Part shown: positions 13,602 through 61,342 of the stretch, in pieces
Layout: each line of letters starts with the position of its first letter
How positions within the stretch are numbered: position 1 is the first letter of the stretch
Source: Escherichia phage nomo
Sequence record: MN850578.1
DNA length: 64,000 bases
Direction: 5' to 3' (one strand)
Position numbers and translations under genes: made by a program
Notes under the pieces: model-generated
Seen by the model: the letters and a program-made list of their open reading frames with translations, nothing else
Told to the model about the DNA's origin: nothing
Databases searched by the model: none

Positions 13602-15083
13602 TTACTTAGCGTACTCGATTAATTCCACAGTTTTCCCAAAGCTCGGGATATAATTTTTATTATACCCCTCAGTGAGGACCCATAGAGTATCGTACTTTTT
13701 CCACTTGTTGTCAACAACCTTTTGTTCAAAGTTATGCTCAAAGTATAGGTCGGTCAGGACGATGACATCTTTTGCATTAGGTATGTTGGCATCCAGATAC
13801 TCGAACACGCAAGCAGCTGTTGTGCCCCATGTTGAGTGGACCTCATAGTTGACCATCTCGTCTATGTTGCCGCGAGTGTATACTTTAACCTCTCCAACCT
13901 CAGTTGACCAACAGAACATTGTAACCTTAAACTCTTTATACAGATTGCACAATCCGGTGATTTCATTGAACATTTTCTTTAAAGTTCTTTGAGAGATCGA
14001 GCCAGAAACGTCTAAAGCCACCACAATATCTATAGTGTTTTCCGGATTACGACCAGGAACAATAACGTGCTGGTTCTTGTTTATAGCCCCAACTTTTCGC
14101 ATTGTGCTGGTCAAAGACCCAGATCGGCGACCAGGTTTTCTGTAGGTCAGTTCGGCCTTTCTTTTAGACAACATACGTTGCTTAATGATGTCTATATAGT
14201 TGATTACAGGCCTACCTCTGTTCTTGACAAACTCACGCACCGCCTCAGGGCAACGGCCTCCGGACGCTTGCATTGCTGCCTCCAGCATATCACCAGAGTC
14301 CTGCATGGCCTGATCTTTATCAGATTGGCTGATTACAGGTTGTGGCTGATCATACCCCATAGCCTTTCCAAGATTATCACTGGTGCCACCGTTCCCACTC
14401 ATGTGATCATCGGTTTGTCGCTTATCACTTTGAGAGTTCTCACCTTTACCGTTCTTACTTTTACCGTTATTCTGATCTCTTTGCTTATCAAGAACTGCAT
14501 AAACGTTCTCAGCAATCCATCCATGAAACTTCATGTCGCAGTAGCAGCTGGCTAAGAAGCCAAAAGGCTTACCTTTCATGAACGTAGTGCTTTTCCCCTT
14601 CGGGAAGAAAACACAAGGAGGTTTGCTAAAGTCAACCACAAGGCCTGTGTTGATAACGTGATCACAAGCAATATTGAACAGTTCCGGCTCAAAGCTTTTA
14701 CCACGGACTAGGTGATCACAGATAATATGCCCCACCTCATGTGACAGAAGGAAGGCCACCTCTTTCACAGATTTTGGGGAATAGAAAACTTCAGCCATCT
14801 CAAACTGCTCGTCAGTTAGAGAAGCCTTAAGAATAGCCTTGCGTTCATCAGCCAATCCCATAATGAACTCAGGACTGTAATAGATGCGTTTATGGTCGGT
14901 TGCCATGGTGGAGCACCATGTGTGGTTTTCTACGAACTGCAACCCTGACAATAGTGTGCCATAAAACGGCAGCTTTTCAAGGAGATACATACGTGCAGCC
15001 TGCAACATTCTCAGGGAATCATCTTTCTGCGAGGCAATGATTTCTGAACTTCTGCTATCCATTAAAACTCCAGAAGGGGCCAT
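13602..15083 (-). CDS. vWA-domain protein with putative Zn-metallopeptidase motif
   Basis: HExxH (SHEVGHIICDH) in N-terminal half; MIDAS DxSGS (VVALDVSGSIS) in C-terminal half; alternative start at 15062 has better RBS (ctggag). Confidence 0.65.
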   Translation of the reverse strand: MAPSGVLMDSRSSEIIASQKDDSLRMLQAARMYLLEKLPFYGTLLSGLQFVENHTWCSTMATDHKRIYYSPEFIMGLADERKAILKASLTDEQFEMAEVFYSPKSVKEVAFLLSHEVGHIICDHLVRGKSFEPELFNIACDHVINTGLVVDFSKPPCVFFPKGKSTTFMKGKPFGFLASCYCDMKFHGWIAENVYAVLDKQRDQNNGKSKNGKGENSQSDKRQTDDHMSGNGGTSDNLGKAMGYDQPQPVISQSDKDQAMQDSGDMLEAAMQASGGRCPEAVREFVKNRGRPVINYIDIIKQRMLSKRKAELTYRKPGRRSGSLTSTMRKVGAINKNQHVIVPGRNPENTIDIVVALDVSGSISQRTLKKMFNEITGLCNLYKEFKVTMFCWSTEVGEVKVYTRGNIDEMVNYEVHSTWGTTAACVFEYLDANIPNAKDVIVLTDLYFEHNFEQKVVDNKWKKYDTLWVLTEGYNKNYIPSFGKTVELIEYAK

Positions 15084-36874: not shown

Positions 36875-37240
36875 ATGGAACAAATGAACGATCAAGCGTC
36901 GGTTGCGATGAACGAGCAAGAACAACCTCAAGAATTTTTCTTAGGGTTAAGTAAAGATCAAGTGTCTCTTCTGCTAGTGCTTTCTTCTTTCATGGGAAGA
37001 CTTCAGGAGCTCACACAACAACCAGAGGCTGAACAATTATTTCAAGCTCTGCGTGAAGAAGAAAAATATCGTCGTTTGGACTATGCCTTAGGTTGGGTAG
37101 CTCAACAACGAGATATGCTGATGGCCCTCTCTGGGACCACAAGTTTTGCAATGGGGCTGTTGGCTCAAGTTCAGGACAAATTAATTCAAGCAGGGTTTGC
37201 ACACACGGCAAACACTAACGAAGAACAAGGAGACAAATAA
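36875..37240 (+). CDS. hypothetical protein
   Basis: RBS cggaga. Confidence 0.5.
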   Translation: MEQMNDQASVAMNEQEQPQEFFLGLSKDQVSLLLVLSSFMGRLQELTQQPEAEQLFQALREEEKYRRLDYALGWVAQQRDMLMALSGTTSFAMGLLAQVQDKLIQAGFAHTANTNEEQGDK

Positions 37241-38466
37241 TGAGCGTTATTCAACAATTCGCTAACCCGATGAATCCGCGTGAAACTGTTTTACTGGCTC
37301 ACGGCATGATTAAACGTGTCAGCATCAAGCCTATCAAAGGTGCTGATCCTACAACAGGTATTAAAACCACTGTGTGGCAAGGTAAGAAAATTGAATCCAG
37401 CCACACCATCTCTTTACTGATTTCTGAACTGGATTCCTCTGATAACCTGCTTCAAGGTGGTGAAGAAGTTTGGATCAGCATGGGTGATAAGCTGCTTAAA
37501 CCTGGTCATCAAGACTCTGTCTCTGTTAAAATTGATGACAAGTGGGAAACCGTAACGCCGGGATGGATCGTAAATATTCCTTTGAAGGCAAACGAGCATA
37601 ACGGTAAGACCTATTACAAAGGCTCACTGGCTAAGATGGTCAAGCTGGGTGCAGGAGAGGCTCCAGCAGCGACTCAGCAGCAAAAACAGCAACAAGGTGC
37701 ACAATCACAAGGCCAGAAGCAGAAACCTCAGCAGAATGCCAATCAGGACGTTTTACGCATCTATGGCGATGTGACTCAGATTGTTGGCAACGTGGTTACT
37801 GTTAATGACCACAAGATTGGCGAAGGTGCTATGGTTGTAACTGATGAGCAGCTTAAAGACCTGGTGGTAGGTGGTCGTGTTGCAGCCATTGTTGACAAAG
37901 ACACCGGAAACATTATCAGTGGTTTCAAAGCCTATCCCCCTAAGGCAGAGAACGGCACTCAAGGCTCCGGTGGCAAGCGTAAATCCTCTTACGACCCTAT
38001 CGGTGTGGAAACGGGGCATAGCATCAATGCGTTGCAGATCATCCTGGATCGCGGGTTTAAGGTAGACGACCCACTGGGCGTGGCTAAAACACTGCACGTA
38101 GTCACCATTGAGCTTAAGAAAGAGTATGCTCAAGCCACCAACCGAACTGAAGATGAAGTAGGTGCCAGTGTCGGTAATGCGGTGTTGAACGCTTGTCGCC
38201 GTATTGACAAGAAAACGAAAGTTGATGATTTTGCAGCGGCAATTACTGCAGAAGCAAAAGATGTCTTGACTAATCTGGCTGAACCGTTGTACGATTGGAT
38301 CAAGAACGGTGCTGGGTCAACTGACTATCAAGAACCCCAGGCTGCCAAACAGGAAGCAGCTCCACAGCAAAACACTGTAGACGCTCCTCCTGTAAATGAT
38401 GAGGAAGATGACCCAATGGATCAGAATCCAGCACAGTATACCTTTGATGATGACATCCCTTTTTAA
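37240..38466 (+). CDS. putative ssDNA-binding protein with bacterial SSB-type C-terminal tail
   Basis: Ends ..NPAQYTFDDDIPF, identical in its last six residues to the E. coli SSB C-terminal tip DDDIPF; Gln-rich linker before acidic tail. Confidence 0.55.
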   Translation: MSVIQQFANPMNPRETVLLAHGMIKRVSIKPIKGADPTTGIKTTVWQGKKIESSHTISLLISELDSSDNLLQGGEEVWISMGDKLLKPGHQDSVSVKIDDKWETVTPGWIVNIPLKANEHNGKTYYKGSLAKMVKLGAGEAPAATQQQKQQQGAQSQGQKQKPQQNANQDVLRIYGDVTQIVGNVVTVNDHKIGEGAMVVTDEQLKDLVVGGRVAAIVDKDTGNIISGFKAYPPKAENGTQGSGGKRKSSYDPIGVETGHSINALQIILDRGFKVDDPLGVAKTLHVVTIELKKEYAQATNRTEDEVGASVGNAVLNACRRIDKKTKVDDFAAAITAEAKDVLTNLAEPLYDWIKNGAGSTDYQEPQAAKQEAAPQQNTVDAPPVNDEEDDPMDQNPAQYTFDDDIPF

Positions 38467-38481
38467 CATCTAGTTAACATA

Positions 38482-38509
38482 GCCCTGCCCGAAAGGGTGG
38501 GGCATTTTT
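38482..38509 (+). terminator. rho-independent terminator
   Basis: gccctgccc-gaaa-gggtggggc then atttttg; sequence copy of the 28349 terminator. Confidence 0.6.
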
Positions 38510-39041: not shown

Positions 39042-39239
39042 ATGATTTATCGAATCCGTGTAAGAGAAGATGCACCAGGCTGTTACTTTGACTGGCGTGG
39101 GTGGTGGTTTATCCACCCAATGGATGGACTCACAGATAGAATGCTGGATGCTGCCCTTTACACAGATACCGACATAGAATATAATCTCTATCTGAAGGAC
39201 GGTATAGATAACGGCCTGTTTGAAGCAATTCCTGTGTAA
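39042..39239 (+). CDS. hypothetical protein
   Basis: RBS caggagg. Confidence 0.45.
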   Translation: MIYRIRVREDAPGCYFDWRGWWFIHPMDGLTDRMLDAALYTDTDIEYNLYLKDGIDNGLFEAIPV

Positions 39240-39307: not shown

Positions 39308-39733
39308 ATGATCTATGAAATGCCAAAACTGATTCGTGACGATGCCCAAAACGCTCACACCATTATTATGGGCAAACGCATGGATATTATTTGTCATAAA
39401 GATTTCTGGGAAGGAAGTTACTTCACAGAGTATTTTGGTAAACTGGACAATGGTCTGCTGATCCAGTTCTACACCGATGCGGAAAACAACATTCCCTGGG
39501 AGTTCGAAACTGAAGATGTCCATAAACTTTTCACCTTCCTCGGTATTAAGGTTAAGGCCAAGTTTGAAGAAGGTGAGTGCGACGATTGTGGATTTTATGA
39601 GGTAACAGATTTCTACCTTCCTAGCGGTAAGAACCTTTACTATGAAAGCCACTTCGGTAACTCCAATATGCCACAGTGCTGGACTGAGTTTTTTGAAATT
39701 GCGGAAGAGGAGCTGGCTTACCGTGATTATTGA
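39308..39733 (+). CDS. hypothetical protein
   Basis: RBS caggaga. Confidence 0.5.
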   Translation: MIYEMPKLIRDDAQNAHTIIMGKRMDIICHKDFWEGSYFTEYFGKLDNGLLIQFYTDAENNIPWEFETEDVHKLFTFLGIKVKAKFEEGECDDCGFYEVTDFYLPSGKNLYYESHFGNSNMPQCWTEFFEIAEEELAYRDY

Positions 39734-40181
39734 TACTGTAGAGGGGGATTTAATCTCCCTTTTTAAGAGCGGTGCTGGTCACCTGATCCACGGTTGTAAC
39801 TGCTTCCACACAATGGGCAAGGGTATAGCAAAACAGATTGCCCGTGAGTTTCCTCAAGCACTGTCAGCCGACAAAGAGACTAGATACGGTTGCCTAAGTA
39901 AACTGGGTGCGTTCTCCCGATGGGAGCACTTATCTCCGATAGGTATTGTCTACGGAATCAATCTATATACCCAGTTCTACCCAGGACCTAATGCTGAGTA
40001 TTTCTCAATCCTGAAAGGCTTTGAGCTAGTCAATGAAGTATTCAGCGGATCGACTTTACCATTCTACATCCCTAAGATCGGGTGCGGCATAGGCGGTTTG
40101 AAGTGGGAACACGTAGAGGACGTTATTAACCTTGCCACTTTCGACATAGATATTGTCGTGGTGGAGTACAAAAAGTGTTGA
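39723..40181 (+). CDS. macrodomain protein (TARG1/OARD1-like, putative ADP-ribose hydrolase)
   Basis: EGDLISLF..AGHLIHGCNCFHTMGKGIAKQIAREFP matches the GDL...H.(S/N)..C.MG.GIA..F core of TARG1-type macrodomains; start uncertain (GTG 39723 or ATG 39642). Confidence 0.5.
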   Translation: MIIDTVEGDLISLFKSGAGHLIHGCNCFHTMGKGIAKQIAREFPQALSADKETRYGCLSKLGAFSRWEHLSPIGIVYGINLYTQFYPGPNAEYFSILKGFELVNEVFSGSTLPFYIPKIGCGIGGLKWEHVEDVINLATFDIDIVVVEYKKC

Positions 40182-40631: not shown

Positions 40632-40659
40632 TTGACATCTGAAAACTGCAGTGTATAAT
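40632..40659 (+). promoter_or_regulatory. sigma70-like promoter
   Basis: TTGACA, 16-bp spacer, TATAAT. Confidence 0.6.
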
Positions 40660-52742: not shown

Positions 52743-53006
52743 ATGAAACGTCTTGACCAGCTCAAACTAGTTCAATATATGGCTTATCGTGTTCTGGAAG
52801 TCCAGAAAGGTAGCAAAAAAGAGGTTTGCGAGAAAGCTTATAAGATCTTTACCCGCAAAAAAGATGACTGGATGCTACGCCAGACCAAAAAGGCTGACAT
52901 CTTGGGGTACCTGGAAGAAGAGATCCGACTTGAAGAACAAGAAGAGATCCGCCGTAGTGAGGCAGATTATCAGGCAGCTTGGGAAAACTGGATGAGCAAC
53001 AAATAA
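52743..53006 (+). CDS. hypothetical protein
   Basis: RBS aaagagga; preceded by hairpin gggccaaaaggccc. Confidence 0.55.
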   Translation: MKRLDQLKLVQYMAYRVLEVQKGSKKEVCEKAYKIFTRKKDDWMLRQTKKADILGYLEEEIRLEEQEEIRRSEADYQAAWENWMSNK

Positions 53007-53025
53007 TACAACAAGATGAACGGTC

Positions 53026-53050
53026 AGGGGCTTAAAGCCCCTTTCTTTTT
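53026..53050 (+). terminator. rho-independent terminator ending the plus-strand early block
   Basis: aggggc-ttaa-agcccct then ttctttttg. Confidence 0.7.
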
Positions 53051-55500
53051 GTCTTCTCTTTTCCTACCATAAACGGCCCTACCTGGCAAGTGGAATAATT
53101 GACGAGCCATCAATCCCACACACTGTACAAATATACATGGAAAATAACTATTGCATAATTTTTCATTGTGTGGTAGCAAGGCCATTTTTACACGTTTTTC
53201 CTTCCAAAATTGCACGTAATGCAGCATTTGCACAAAATTTAACCTGATGCATATCTTCAATAGCTTGTCAACAACTAAAAATCTTTATAAGTCATACACT
53301 TACATAACTACAAAAACGTTTTCTACGTGAAAAATCGAGTATAACTATAGCCGCCAGATCTCAGAATTTACGTACGCTCGCCATTCTATAGCCTGCTAAG
53401 CATTTATTCCAACCATAGAATAACTGAATAGTCAATACCTGCATAAAATAATTATTCGTGTAAACTGCATAACATAAATCGGCCCAGGTGTCAACATTTT
53501 TCGTAAACAGTCTGGAATTGTCACGTTAGGTTACCATAAGTAGAGAAATCTTTAGTCGTCTAATGTTTACTGTACGTTACTATATTAACTGAAATCATTA
53601 GATGACTAATAGAAAGATAAGAAATAATTAACAATACAATTATTTTATCTGTAACAATAAGGCAACTATGCAAACGAATGGCATGGCGCGACGGAGTCGC
53701 GACATAATATAAAAGCAGTAACCATCACCCCCGTGATAGTTTGTCTGCAAACTATTAATCAGATCATAGTTGCCTTGTATTTAGTTAATCATGACATAAC
53801 AAGCAAGGCAACTATAGATCTGCTAATAGTTGCCCTGCTTTTATATTATGTCATGCTAATTATAATCAGTGCGATTATTGTCATGTATAATTATTGTCAT
53901 GCAAACGAATGGCATGGCTGATTATCGGTGTGTAAACAGTCAATCATGTAAATGGTTAGCATGTGAACAATCAGGAATGTAAACAATCCAGTGTGTAAAC
54001 TAATAGGTGTGTAAAAGTGTCATGTTGTGTCAGTTAGGTCACATTATGTCAGACAAGTTTTTCTCCTCTTTGTCAAGTGCTGCATGAAAAATTTACAAGC
54101 TTGTATGGTAGCATTTTTGCGGCCCTGTTTACATTCAGGAGTGTATGTATAATCCTTGTTGTGTGGGCGTTTAGACGTCTGGACGGTCAGAAGTCTGCAG
54201 GTCAATATCTAATCTATTGGCTGCTAACTATATCCCCCACAAATAATAAGAAATATAATTGTTATGTGCGTAAACAGTAACCCATGTTATCAATCCCTGT
54301 ATGTATCGCCAGTTGTGCGCATAATGGGTATTATGTTAAATTGCCCGTAATGATAACTATTCTCACAATGATAGGTATTCTCATTCACCCCCACAAGATA
54401 GGTTGCAAATGTTGTGCCACTGTGTGAACGGCCTCACCTATTAATTTGCCTCACTGCCTCGATATTTGAGAATTGTTATAAGAATGAGAAGTATTCCCAT
54501 TCCGTCCGCCTGGCAGCACTCCAGTCGCTACGGCTCCTGACAGGGCAGCACTCCTGTAGGTCAGGTCAAAATCGTGGTAGAACTGGACCTGTTCGGATAT
54601 TTCTGGCTGACTCTTCAGGTCTGTGTGGGAAAAGCCAACCCCTCCGGCGGGGCAGGGGATATCTGCAGGAAAATTGCAGGTCAATTAAAAATTTACGTGG
54701 TGTATGAAGCGCTCTTCAGGCAAGGCATGTATTAGAGGATGAAACCCTCTTCAGGCAATGATATTTGTGGGTGGGATATTTGCTGGAAAGCCAGATATGA
54801 CGGGACTCCCGGCGGGGCAGGGGTAGTACAGACAGGGAAAATATGAGGATGTAATTGGGGAAATTGATCAGACAGGTAGAGTATGGAATATGTTACAGGT
54901 ATGTTAAATATGGAGGTTGAATATCTGTAGGATTTGTGTGTAAAATCAAAGACTTAAGGGGTGTTGTGGTATTTTCTATAAATAATTCAAGTTTAATAGG
55001 CAATATTTGTCTCTATCCGCTTTGTGTGGTAAACAGATTCAGATGAAATTGGTTTACAAGTGTATACATAATATACAAATTAAAGATACAAGAAACCCCC
55101 CTCCCCCCTCGGCTACCATTCACCTTTTCCTCTGACTGGTACTTAAACACTTATTCAGACTCTTCAGGTTATCACCCATATATCATATGGCAGTGACTGG
55201 TGTCCTCCGGCCCCTCTTTCGTCACCCGTCCGCTTCGCCATGCTAATGCCATAGCCAATGGTTCGGTTGTTCACCCTGTTCACTCAGGTGTATCTCCATA
55301 CCCCTTCAAACCGAAGAGAACAGAAAACCCGAATTACTCGGTAAAAGAAAAGAGAAGAACTTAATTTTATCAGGATAGGCAAGAATGTCAAGGCATGACT
55401 GCTCACTAAACAAGCAAACAGTCATGTGTGGAAGGTAAGTGATTGTGGTGGTGGGAAATTTAGTTGAAAGATGTGTTATAGGTGCGCTTCCAGCACTTTA
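53051..55500. repeat. 2.4-kb non-coding, AT-rich, repeat-dense region between convergent gene blocks
   Basis: No ORF with RBS; contains palindrome ggcaactatagatctgctaatagttgcc (53797-53824), inverted ggcaactat copies, direct repeats gcaaacgaatggcatgg (53660, 53891), GTAAACAG-type repeats, about 75-bp imperfect direct repeats with ccggcggggcagggg (54643, 54799) and ctcttcagg (x4). Confidence 0.7.
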
Positions 55501-55520
55501 GCCTGGCAGCTAATTGTGTG

Positions 55521-55736
55521 TCAGTCCAGCGGTTCATCCTCTACTTCACTGAAATCAATGTTCATGGTCTCTTCCCAACCATCGATCTCAGCACAAGAGT
55601 GGAGTTCTTTAGGGTTTACTCCCAAAGCCTCAGCAACAGAGTCTATATTTAACACCTCTGGTAGGTATGATTCATCGAATTCAAGGTAAATCAGGCCACG
55701 AGTGTTGTCAGCCCCACCAAATATTTCTATCTTCAT
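55521..55736 (-). CDS. hypothetical acidic protein
   Basis: RBS gaggag. Confidence 0.5.
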   Translation of the reverse strand: MKIEIFGGADNTRGLIYLEFDESYLPEVLNIDSVAEALGVNPKELHSCAEIDGWEETMNIDFSEVEDEPLD

Positions 55737-55857
55737 GAAATCTCCTCTGGAAATGAGAGTGTGAACAGGGTTTTATACGTTCCAATGCACAAGAATTATA
55801 CACGTTTGCCTCTTCAGGCCATGCTTTAGCATGAGGAACCTGTGTGGGCTCGGTGCT

Positions 55858-60614: not shown

Positions 60615-60884
60615 TTATTCCTCTACAATCTCATACACATCAGGAGTTACAATCAACTCTTCTCCGTTACCCGGTGCAACAAACACCACCAAACCTTCAG
60701 GTGTGTGCTTTTTAGCCATCTCGATAACATCTTCTCGCAGAGCTGGCTCCATCAGATCAAAACCTTCACCTAGGGCATCACGAACCACCTTCATATAGTC
60801 CACTGGTTGTGCTTCAACAATCATGCCTTCAACCAGTCCACAGTTTTTGTCTGCCAGCTCAGTTTTGAATAATTTAATTTTCAT
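60615..60884 (-). CDS. hypothetical acidic protein (MK[IV]K paralog group)
   Basis: RBS gaggag; MKIKLFKTEL.. Confidence 0.5.
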   Translation of the reverse strand: MKIKLFKTELADKNCGLVEGMIVEAQPVDYMKVVRDALGEGFDLMEPALREDVIEMAKKHTPEGLVVFVAPGNGEELIVTPDVYEIVEE

Positions 60885-61021: not shown

Positions 61022-61342
61022 TCATTCTCCAAAGTCAATCTTTACTTTGCCTTTCCCCTTACCTTTCTTTCCACCGCATTTAGCCAGCTGACGTGCTGCG
61101 ACATCTACCATACGGTCAGTTGCCTCGTAAGCATCACTGACTTTAGCCTTGGCAATAACTTCTTTTCCAGAATTGTCAAAAATGAACGCCATAACTTCCT
61201 GGTGATCATTTTCAACTTTTACACTCACACGTGCATAGTTAACAGAGGGATGTAAACGCTCCAGCTTGGACATTTTGCGGGAAATAAAAGATACCATACC
61301 TTCTGTGATTTCTACATTGTTGCCAGTGATTTCAATTTGCAT
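61022..61342 (-). CDS. hpf: ribosome hibernation promoting factor (HPF/RaiA family) homolog
   Basis: N-terminus MQIEITGNNVEITEGM.. parallels E. coli HPF MQLNITGNNVEITEAL; conserved ARQL block; Lys/Gly-rich tail; RBS aaaggaa. Confidence 0.75.
   Translation of the reverse strand: MQIEITGNNVEITEGMVSFISRKMSKLERLHPSVNYARVSVKVENDHQEVMAFIFDNSGKEVIAKAKVSDAYEATDRMVDVAARQLAKCGGKKGKGKGKVKIDFGE

What the first reader, a model, noticed from the sequence alone, without database searches (positions are those of the whole stretch)
39723..40181. TARG1-type macrodomain protein, candidate ADP-ribosylation reversal or anti-defence factor
The motif GDL...HLIHGCNCFHTMGKGIAKQIAREFP is characteristic of the TARG1/OARD1 branch of macrodomains. 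This is the same branch as the DarG antitoxin macrodomain, which removes ADP-ribose from DNA. A phage copy could reverse DNA or protein ADP-ribosylation imposed by host defences such as DarT-like toxins, or degrade ADP-ribose-derived signals.
Basis: partly seen in the sequence, partly recalled or inferred. Interest (0 to 1): 0.6.

Follow-up and report, generated by a model that had tools for sequence, protein, structure and literature searches.

The report
Phage macrodomain of the AdfM (Tk.4) family
This gene in an rV5-like E. coli phage encodes a small ADP-ribose-removing enzyme related to a phage T4 protein recently shown to defeat the DarTG2 bacterial defence, so it is a plausible but untested new member of a known counter-defence family.

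Summary

It is not a strict TARG1 or DarG. The catalytic lysine is replaced by an invariant glutamine (Q84), TARG1's Asp125 is a glycine, and there is no DarT-binding domain. The same Lys-to-Gln replacement occurs in SCO6735, a proven hydrolase of thymidine-linked ADP-ribose on DNA.

The protein is a full-length homologue of T4 Tk.4 (39% identity, same motifs), which was named AdfM in a 2025 preprint after its knockout made T4 sensitive to DarTG2. The tk.4-position gene of phage GEC-3S is 70% identical.

The main rival is Adpp, a 31-35% identical ADPR-1''-phosphate phosphatase linked to the NARP1 pathway. It is disfavoured because this phage has no NARP1 genes and lacks the Adpp sequence signature.

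Verdict: a new, untested member of a known kind.

The parts
39723..40181 (+). Macrodomain gene (152 aa plus stop), a member of the T4 Tk.4/AdfM family (PHROG 335)
39798..39800 (+). Codon AAC for Asn26 in HGCNC. It is invariant in the family and equivalent to DarG N22 and SCO6735 N27.
   Evidence: Sequence; invariant column; role of N22/N27 in PMC13309987 and PMC9411070
39972..39974 (+). Codon CAG for Gln84 in NLYTQ. It is invariant in the family and occupies the position of the catalytic Lys of TARG1 (K84) and DarG (K80), as Gln85 does in SCO6735.
   Evidence: gap-free alignments to DarG and TARG1; the SCO6735 Q85A mutant is inactive
40071..40097 (+). Codons for P117-G125 (PKIGCGIGG), the glycine-rich loop that binds the diphosphate. 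G124 sits where TARG1 has Asp125.
39705..39712 (+). Shine-Dalgarno-like AAGAGGAG, 10 nt upstream of the GTG start
   Evidence: Sequence
39308..39733 (+). Upstream ORF (141 aa, phrog_8157, function unknown). It overlaps the macro gene by 11 nt and is probably co-transcribed and translationally coupled. There is no evidence that it is a functional partner.
39157..39185 (+). Sigma-70-like promoter candidate (TTTACA, 17 nt, TATAAT; 11 of 12 matches) that could drive the two-gene unit. It is a consensus match only.
   Evidence: A terminator-like hairpin at 38482-38503 closes the preceding unit.

Best explanation
The gene encodes a single-domain ADP-ribosyl glycohydrolase of the T4 Tk.4/AdfM family, an anti-DarT factor. 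The proposed mechanism is as follows. The gene is expressed from the replication/early gene block. The enzyme binds the ADP-ribose that the host toxin DarT2 attaches to thymidines of single-stranded phage DNA. It cleaves the ribose-thymine bond, releasing free ADP-ribose and restoring DNA that can be replicated. Catalysis would not use a lysine. As in SCO6735, Gln84 (held in place by Asn26) would position the distal ribose while the loops HGCNCFHTMGKGIA and PKIGCGIGG hold the diphosphate. What is shown here: the gene, the macro fold, its class, its active-site residues and its homology to Tk.4. What comes from the literature: Tk.4 protects T4 from DarTG2, and a Gln-type enzyme can cleave thymidine-linked ADP-ribose on DNA. 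What is inferred: that the rV5-type protein has this activity and this role.
For: (1) The macro fold is predicted with high confidence, and the closest structures are all of the TARG1/DarG/Poa1p/BT1257 class. (2) The protein is 39% identical to T4 Tk.4 over its full length (E=3e-41), with the same motifs HGCNCFHTMG, NLYTQFxPGPN and IGxGIG. (3) tk.4 was the single hit in a DarTG2 transposon screen of T4, and a clean knockout made T4 sensitive to DarTG2. (4) The gene at the tk.4 position of Krischvirus GEC-3S, between vs and tk, is 70% identical to the window protein and groups with it in 92% of bootstrap replicates. It is 44% identical to T4 Tk.4, so the distance from rV5 to T4 lies within the spread of positional orthologues. 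(5) Q84 and N26 are invariant across 57 homologues of 33-85% identity. SCO6735 has Gln85 and Asn27 at the same positions, its Q85A and N27S mutants lose activity, and it efficiently cleaves DarT-made thymidine-linked ADP-ribose on DNA. (6) The loop after Q84 has the same length as in DarG and TARG1, giving gap-free alignments. (7) The best hit in both PADLOC and NCBIfam is the DarG macrodomain (48 and 47 bits). (8) Several related phage contigs carry deleted or frameshifted copies, as expected for an accessory gene that is useful only under some conditions.
Against: No experiment exists for any Vequintavirus copy. The Bas54 screens in the HIDEN-SEQ preprint did not report a DarTG2 test. Tk.4 itself has genetic evidence only, with no biochemistry. 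Identity to Tk.4 (39%) is only a little higher than identity to the validated phosphatase Adpp (31-35%), and deep nodes of the family tree are unresolved. The protein scores far below the DarG equivalog cut-off (47 against 250 bits). The biochemically proven chimallivirus AdfM (PhiKZ gp104) uses a lysine and is only 20% identical. Macrodomains are often promiscuous.
Confidence: 0.6

Rival explanations
1. It is an Adpp-type ADP-ribose-1''-phosphate phosphatase. It would convert the ADPR-1''-phosphate made by RES-domain (aRES) NAD+-degrading defences into ADP-ribose, as the NARP1-associated macrodomain of Vibrio phage Gary does.
For: It belongs to the same PHROG (335, named 'phosphatase'). It is 31-35% identical to Gary Adpp (KNV71_gp137) and its Ceto orthologue, which sit between Adps and Namat. 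Purified Gary Adpp converts ADPR-1''-phosphate to ADP-ribose and is needed to override aRES. Poa1p is among the top structural matches, and Poa1p His23 has an equivalent, H23.
Against: The product is useful only as input for NARP1. tblastn with Ceto Adps and Namat finds nothing with E below 1 in the window plus the 77 kb of the close relative APECc02 that I fetched, 40-117 kb. The sequence where the window's first bases join that stretch was not aligned, so the join is unchecked. T4, whose Tk.4 acts against DarTG2, is not known to have NARP1 either (my own knowledge, not tested here). All four NARP1-linked macrodomains examined share a signature: HQ[CA]NC, Y-G-Q-Y, a loop 5-7 residues longer, and GLAG[GE]DW. 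The window protein lacks this signature and has the Tk.4 signature instead. The NARP1-linked set separates from window/GEC-3S/T4 in 53% of bootstrap replicates, which is only weak support.
Confidence: 0.15
2. It reverses or processes ADP-ribosylation of substrates other than DNA. Candidates are protein Glu/Asp-linked ADP-ribose, uracil-linked ADP-ribose on RNA, and O-acetyl-ADP-ribose made by the phage's own Sir2-like enzyme.
For: TARG1 and SCO6735 also act on protein substrates and on uracil-linked ADP-ribose in RNA. The close relative APECc02 carries a gene annotated Sir2 outside the window. TARG1/OARD1 is named an O-acetyl-ADP-ribose deacetylase in the PDB.
Against: No ADP-ribosyltransferase, Sir2 or NADAR Pfam domain was found among 88 ORFs of the window. 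The Sir2 gene lies about 50 kb away. T4-like phages keep Tk.4 without a Sir2 gene (my own knowledge). The one genetic phenotype known for the family is against DarTG2.
Confidence: 0.1
3. It does not hydrolyse anything. It binds and sequesters an ADP-ribose-derived immune signal, for example the Thoeris signals His-ADPR or gcADPR.
Against: The residues needed for catalysis in SCO6735 and DarG (N26, Q84 and the glycine loops) are invariant. The closest structures are all hydrolases. No sponge of this family is known.
Confidence: 0.04

Closest known systems
Phage T4 Tk.4 = AdfM (anti-DarT factor macrodomain; bioRxiv 10.1101/2025.11.20.689424)
   Same: Single-domain protein of about 150 aa. 39% identity over the full length (E=3e-41). 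The same HGCNCFHTMG, NLYTQFxPGPN and IGxGIG motifs, including Gln at the catalytic-lysine position and the short loop. Encoded among early or replication-period genes.
   Different: Different phage family and genomic neighbourhood (T4: between vs and tk; here: downstream of the DNA polymerase block). Loop 2 reads GIGGLKW here and GIGKGNW in T4. The anti-DarTG2 phenotype is shown for T4 only.
Streptomyces coelicolor SCO6735 (PDB 5E3B)
   Same: ALC1/TARG1-class macrodomain with Gln in place of the catalytic Lys and a conserved Asn that positions it. It lacks TARG1's Asp125. It is a proven hydrolase of thymidine-linked ADP-ribose on DNA.
   Different: Cellular protein, about 23% identical. Its mobile loop is 5 residues longer, whereas the window protein has the short DarG/TARG1-length loop.
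DarG2 antitoxin macrodomain (PDB 5M3I, 5M31, 7OMU) and chimallivirus AdfM (PhiKZ gp104)
   Different: DarG and PhiKZ AdfM use a catalytic Lys (K80, K78), and this protein has Gln. There is no C-terminal DarT-binding domain and no adjacent darT. It scores 47-48 bits on the DarG models against 133-138 for PhiKZ gp104, and it is 20% identical to gp104.
Adpp, the NARP1-associated ADPR-1''-phosphate phosphatase (Vibrio phage Gary KNV71_gp137), and yeast Poa1p
   Same: Same PHROG and fold class. 31-35% identity. Conserved His23, Asn26 and Gln84 equivalents.
   Different: Adpp genes sit inside Adps-Namat operons, and this phage has neither gene. Adpp carries HQxNC, YGQY, a longer loop and GLAG[GE]DW.
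Human TARG1/OARD1
   Same: Best Foldseek match (TM-score 0.78 normalised to the query, 0.84 to the target). 23-26% identity. Same class.
   Different: The catalytic dyad K84/D125 is replaced by Q84/G124.

Membership tests
Macrodomain (Pfam PF01661) | Score above the Pfam gathering threshold and a three-layer alpha/beta/alpha macro fold | tested here: met
ALC1-like / TARG1-like macrodomain class | Closer in sequence and structure to TARG1, DarG, Poa1p, SCO6735 and BT1257 than to MacroD, macroH2A or PARG types | tested here: met
TARG1/OARD1 proper | Catalytic dyad Lys84 and Asp125 | tested here: not met
   The family profile aligns invariant Q84 with K84, and G124 with D125. The dyad is described in PMC9411070.
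DarG2 antitoxin | Catalytic Lys80 in the PTKK motif | tested here: not met
   NLYTQF aligns without gaps to NFPTKK.
DarG2 antitoxin | Conserved Asn22 | tested here: met
   N26 is invariant in 57 homologues and aligns with the second Asn of the NTVN motif.
DarG2 antitoxin | C-terminal DarT-binding domain, an adjacent darT gene, and the NCBIfam equivalog score | tested here: not met
   The protein is 152 aa and covers only profile positions 3-141 of 338. It scores 46.8 bits against a cut-off of 250. No ADP-ribosyltransferase was found among the window ORFs.
SCO6735-type (Gln) hydrolases | Gln at the catalytic-Lys position together with the Asn that positions it | tested here: met
   Q84 and N26 are invariant. 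The equivalence rests on alignment to TARG1 K84 and DarG K80 plus the paper's statement that Gln85 occupies that position. SCO6735 was not aligned directly residue by residue.
SCO6735-type (Gln) hydrolases | Mobile loop 5 residues longer than in DarG/TARG1 | tested here: not met
   The loop has DarG/TARG1 length, with no gap. The long loop is found in the Adpp-type relatives instead.
T4 Tk.4 / AdfM family | Full-length homology to Tk.4 with the shared motif signature | tested here: met
   39% identity, E=3e-41. Signature shared. The GEC-3S gene at the tk.4 position is 70% identical.
T4 Tk.4 / AdfM family | Protects the phage against DarTG2 | not testable with these tools
   Shown only for T4. 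No data were found for Vequintavirinae.
Adpp (NARP1-AP phosphatase) | Encoded within or next to an Adps-Namat (NARP1) operon | tested here: not met
   No Adps or Namat homologue in the window plus 77 kb (40-117 kb) of the close relative APECc02 (tblastn E above 1). Annotated genes agree.
Adpp (NARP1-AP phosphatase) | Sequence signature of NARP1-linked macrodomains (HQxNC, YGQY, extended loop, GLAG[GE]DW). This signature was derived here from four examples. | tested here: not met
   The window protein has HGCNC, YTQF, a short loop and GIGGLKW.
Poa1p | Equivalents of the residues mutated in the Poa1p crystal structures (H23, S30, F152) | tested here: inconclusive
   H23 is conserved, S30 aligns with T30, and F152 aligns with G124. 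The roles of these residues were not checked in the Poa1p paper.

The most novel reading that the evidence does not exclude
The Gln-type, short-loop Tk.4 class, including this Vequintavirus enzyme, is a broad-spectrum eraser rather than a dedicated anti-DarT2 factor. One small protein would remove thymine-linked ADP-ribose from DNA, remove uracil-linked ADP-ribose from RNA, and dephosphorylate ADPR-1''-phosphate. In that case one PHROG would have been tuned repeatedly between the AdfM and Adpp roles by a loop indel and a few active-site changes.
Probability: 0.15. Interest if true: 0.55.

Novelty: new member of a known kind. Interest (0 to 1): 0.3.

Why it matters
If confirmed, it would extend the AdfM anti-DarTG2 strategy from T-even and nucleus-forming phages to the V5-like phages, which are used in phage-therapy cocktails. 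It would help predict host range on E. coli strains that carry DarTG2. It also flags an annotation problem. PHROG 335 is labelled 'phosphatase', but it contains two experimentally distinct counter-defence functions, AdfM and Adpp. These appear separable by a simple sequence signature together with NARP1 context.

Tried and rejected
**Search for a partner gene.** A Pfam scan of 88 window ORFs found no ADP-ribosyltransferase, NADAR, Tpt1, RNA ligase or NAD-salvage gene. The ten neighbouring ORFs fall in PHROGs of unknown function.

**The overlapping upstream ORF as a partner.** It has only 4 homologues, all from rV5-like contigs. Its AlphaFold2 model is mediocre: the best model has pLDDT 77 and the other four 37-52. 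Foldseek against PDB gave nothing with E below 0.1. This was a dead end.

**Phylogeny to separate AdfM from Adpp.** The first Biopython bootstrap timed out. A second run had invalid distances and its support values were discarded. The corrected neighbour-joining bootstrap resolves only shallow clades, and deep nodes have about 0% support.

**Net charge and pI as a proxy for DNA binding.** This was not informative. Both validated AdfM proteins are acidic, and the Adpp proteins vary.

**Synonymous versus non-synonymous changes among close Vequintavirus copies.** There were only 1-3 codon differences, too few to use.

**RNA genes.** Rfam and tRNA scans of the window found nothing. Base composition around the gene is unremarkable.

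**Literature on Vequintavirinae and DarTG2.** The extended BASEL paper does not mention DarTG. The 2022 DarTG paper by LeRoux and colleagues is not held.

**Direct alignment to SCO6735.** It never ranked among the printed PDB alignments.

Full report
**Origin of the window.** The 2-kb stretch around the finding is 99.9% identical to Escherichia phages naswa and magaca and 98% identical to rV5 derivatives. The window therefore comes from an rV5-like Vequintavirus. The gene lies on the + strand in a block that runs through the rIIA and rIIB genes, a helicase, the helicase-primase, a T7-like DNA polymerase, an endonuclease and then many small ORFs of unknown function.

**The observation.** An ORF ending at TGA 40179-40181 is present. 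The finding's start, GTG 39723, is the right one for four reasons:
- It has an AAGAGGAG box 10 nt upstream.
- It overlaps the upstream ORF by only 11 nt.
- It yields 152 aa beginning MIIDTVEGDL, like homologues of 150-155 aa.
- It is the start annotated in rV5_ev168, and the GTG is conserved in two related genomes.

Some GenBank records start the CDS at Met31, which would remove the first two strands and Asn26. The quoted motif is present as written.

**Fold and class.** Sequence and structure searches all point the same way:
- Pfam Macro passes its threshold (28 against 22 bits).
- PHROG 335 matches at 2e-59.
- A 57-sequence family alignment used as a profile hits PDB chains of Mtb DarG (2e-17), TARG1 (1.5e-15), Taq DarG, BT1257, SCO6735 (6e-15) and Poa1p (1e-13). 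The next family scores only 6e-5.
- AlphaFold2 on that alignment gives pLDDT 97.0 and pTM 0.91.
- Foldseek puts TARG1, Poa1p, DarG, BT1257 and SCO6735 first.

**Active site.** The invariant residues in the family are G24, N26, G34, A36, N80, Q84, P117, I119, G120 and G125.
- In gap-free alignments, NLYTQF lies on NFPTKK of DarG and on LITKKR of TARG1. Q84 therefore occupies the position of the catalytic Lys (K80 in DarG, K84 in TARG1).
- G124 occupies the position of TARG1 Asp125.
- By its defining catalytic residues, the protein is not a TARG1 or a DarG.
- It is a single domain with no DarT-binding C-terminal region. It scores 47-48 bits on the DarG models, far below the equivalog cut-off of 250.

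The Lys-to-Gln replacement has a characterised precedent. SCO6735 has Gln85 at this position and lacks both TARG1 catalytic residues. Its Q85A mutant is inactive and its N27S mutant nearly so. It cleaves thymidine-linked ADP-ribose on DarT-modified ssDNA efficiently (PMC9411070), and it also cleaves uracil-linked ADP-ribose on RNA (PMC13036486).

**Closest functional relatives.** tblastn finds homologues in 2,771 phage records, many of them T4-like phages where the gene is annotated tk.4 next to vs.
- T4 Tk.4, taken from NC_000866, is 39% identical over its full length (E=3e-41). It shares HGCNCFHTMG, NLYTQFxPGPN and IGxGIG.
- A November 2025 preprint reports tk.4 as the only significant hit when a T4 transposon library was passed through a DarTG2 host. 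A clean knockout became sensitive to DarTG2, and the authors named the gene adfM.
- An independent Cell Reports 2026 paper used the same name for the chimallivirus macrodomain PhiKZ gp104 and showed that it removes DarT2 modifications from DNA in vitro. That protein uses a lysine (N23, K78), scores 133-138 bits on the DarG models, and is only 20% identical to the window protein. It is a separate lineage.
- In Krischvirus GEC-3S, the gene in the tk.4 slot between vs and tk is 70% identical to the window protein and 44% identical to T4 Tk.4. It groups with the window protein in 92% of bootstrap replicates. The rV5-type gene therefore lies inside the spread of true tk.4 positional orthologues, and lateral transfer between these two phage groups is likely.

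**The main rival.** Vibrio phage Ceto has a homologue (35% identical) between a 'ribose-phosphate pyrophosphokinase' and a 'nicotinamide phosphoribosyl transferase', which are the NARP1 genes Adps and Namat. Its orthologue in Vibrio phage Gary, 88% identical, is the Adpp protein of a January 2026 preprint. Purified Adpp converts ADPR-1''-phosphate to ADP-ribose, and the three-gene operon overrides the RES-domain defence aRES.

One PHROG thus holds two experimentally distinct counter-defence functions. Two tests discriminate between them, and both favour AdfM:
- **Genomic context.** Adpp is useful only as a feeder for NARP1. tblastn with Ceto Adps and Namat against the window plus 77 kb (40-117 kb) of the close relative APECc02 finds nothing with E below 1. 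In the same search, the Ceto ATPase and phosphoesterase genes are found at 1e-32 to 1e-34, which serves as a positive control. The sequence where the window's first bases join the APECc02 stretch was not aligned.
- **Sequence signature.** The four NARP1-linked macrodomains examined (Gary, Ceto, JSF10 and Pakpunavirus PA10) share HQ[CA]NC, Y-G-Q-Y, a loop 5-7 residues longer after the Gln, and GLAG[GE]DW. The window protein, T4 Tk.4, GEC-3S and phiEa2809 share HG[CA]NC, LYTQF-PGPN with the short DarG-length loop, and GIG.

The tree adds only weak support. The NARP1-linked set is separated from window/GEC-3S/T4 in 53% of replicates, and deep nodes are unresolved.

**Other context.**
- No ADP-ribosyltransferase, NADAR, Sir2 or NAD-salvage domain occurs among 88 window ORFs. 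A gene annotated Sir2 exists elsewhere in the genome of the close relative APECc02.
- A sigma-70-like promoter candidate at 39157-39185 and the 11-nt overlap suggest a two-gene unit with the upstream ORF. That ORF is restricted to rV5-like phages and gave no structural match.
- Several related contigs carry deleted, fused or frameshifted copies of the macro gene. The vB_Eco_Alma record has a 1-nt gap. This fits a dispensable accessory gene.

**Conclusion.** The most likely function is an AdfM-type hydrolase that removes DarT2-made thymidine-linked ADP-ribose from phage DNA, using a lysine-independent mechanism like that of SCO6735 (confidence about 0.6). Adpp-type phosphatase activity gets about 0.15, other ADP-ribose substrates about 0.1, and a non-catalytic binder about 0.04. 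The family's role has already been published for T4, so this is a new and untested member of a known kind.

Noticed in passing
window 39308-40181; related proteins P0017, P0019, P0035, P0037, P0052; L001:12724-13181: Natural disrupted alleles of the macro gene occur in related phage contigs. P0017 fuses the first 55 aa of the upstream ORF to the macro gene at a shared QFY microhomology, which deletes the N-terminal half. P0019 has an internal deletion. P0037 and P0052 are frameshifted. P0035 has a replaced 3' end. The vB_Eco_Alma record has a 1-nt gap.
   Followed up: partly
L003:20814-21182 (OR062943.1) and L001:12813-13181 (OV101294.1): Several GenBank records annotate the gene from an internal ATG (Met31, 369 bp). 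That start would remove strands 1-2 and Asn26. The GTG start is conserved in the two relatives whose copy aligns to the window gene without gaps. In OV101294.1 the label 'macro domain protein' is attached to the wrong neighbouring small ORF.
   Followed up: partly
L006:3001-3456 (Enterobacteria phage GEC-3S): The gene in the tk.4 slot of this T4-like Krischvirus is 70% identical to the Vequintavirus gene but only 44% identical to T4 Tk.4. This points to lateral transfer between unrelated myovirus groups.
   Followed up: partly
L016:2483-2974 (Salmonella phage PVP-SE1 gp232): Another genus of Vequintavirinae (Seunavirus) carries a macrodomain of the long-loop, Adpp-like type (31% identical on the trimmed alignment, 34% by tblastn) at a different locus. 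Namat homologues occur in phages of about 146-147 kb. The two genera may have opposite AdfM and Adpp solutions.
   Followed up: no
window 37240-38466 (+): A 408-aa ORF (phrog_4477, no Pfam hit) has a Gln-rich linker and ends in DDDIPF, the same tip I recall at the C-terminus of E. coli SSB. It may be the phage SSB or an SSB-tail mimic. It lies 1.2 kb upstream of the macro gene.
   Followed up: no
window 61022-61342 (-): A phage-encoded homologue of the ribosome hibernation factor HPF/RaiA (Pfam Ribosomal_S30AE, 1.6e-14). APECc02 also annotates the neighbouring ORF, equivalent to window 60615-60884, as 'sigma 54 modulation factor'.
   Followed up: no
window 13602-15083 (-): A 493-aa protein with a DUF2201 putative metallopeptidase domain plus a VWA-like domain. 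In the related phage Bas54, a MoxR ATPase was reported as an anti-defence gene against DS-28. I did not establish whether the adjacent 347-aa ORF is that ATPase.
   Followed up: no
window 40632-40659 (+): A perfect sigma-70 consensus (TTGACA, 16 nt, TATAAT) lies 450 nt downstream of the macro gene. The 6-kb region has more promoter-like sites than shuffled controls (19 against 10.3 ± 3.2), which suggests many short early transcription units.
   Followed up: no
window about 53000-55850: A stretch with only very short ORFs and a GC dip (0.35 at 53-54 kb), located where + strand and - strand gene blocks meet. It may correspond to the roughly 2-kb intergenic region of Bas54 that tolerated no transposon insertions. 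Rfam and tRNA scans found nothing there.
   Followed up: partly
L008:31200-31961 (APECc02 gp140, outside the window): The close relative APECc02 carries a gene annotated as Sir2, next to genes annotated as a nucleotide pyrophosphohydrolase and an RNA-ligase-like protein. An ATPase and phosphoesterase pair nearby also flanks the NARP1-AP operon in the Vibrio phages.
   Followed up: no
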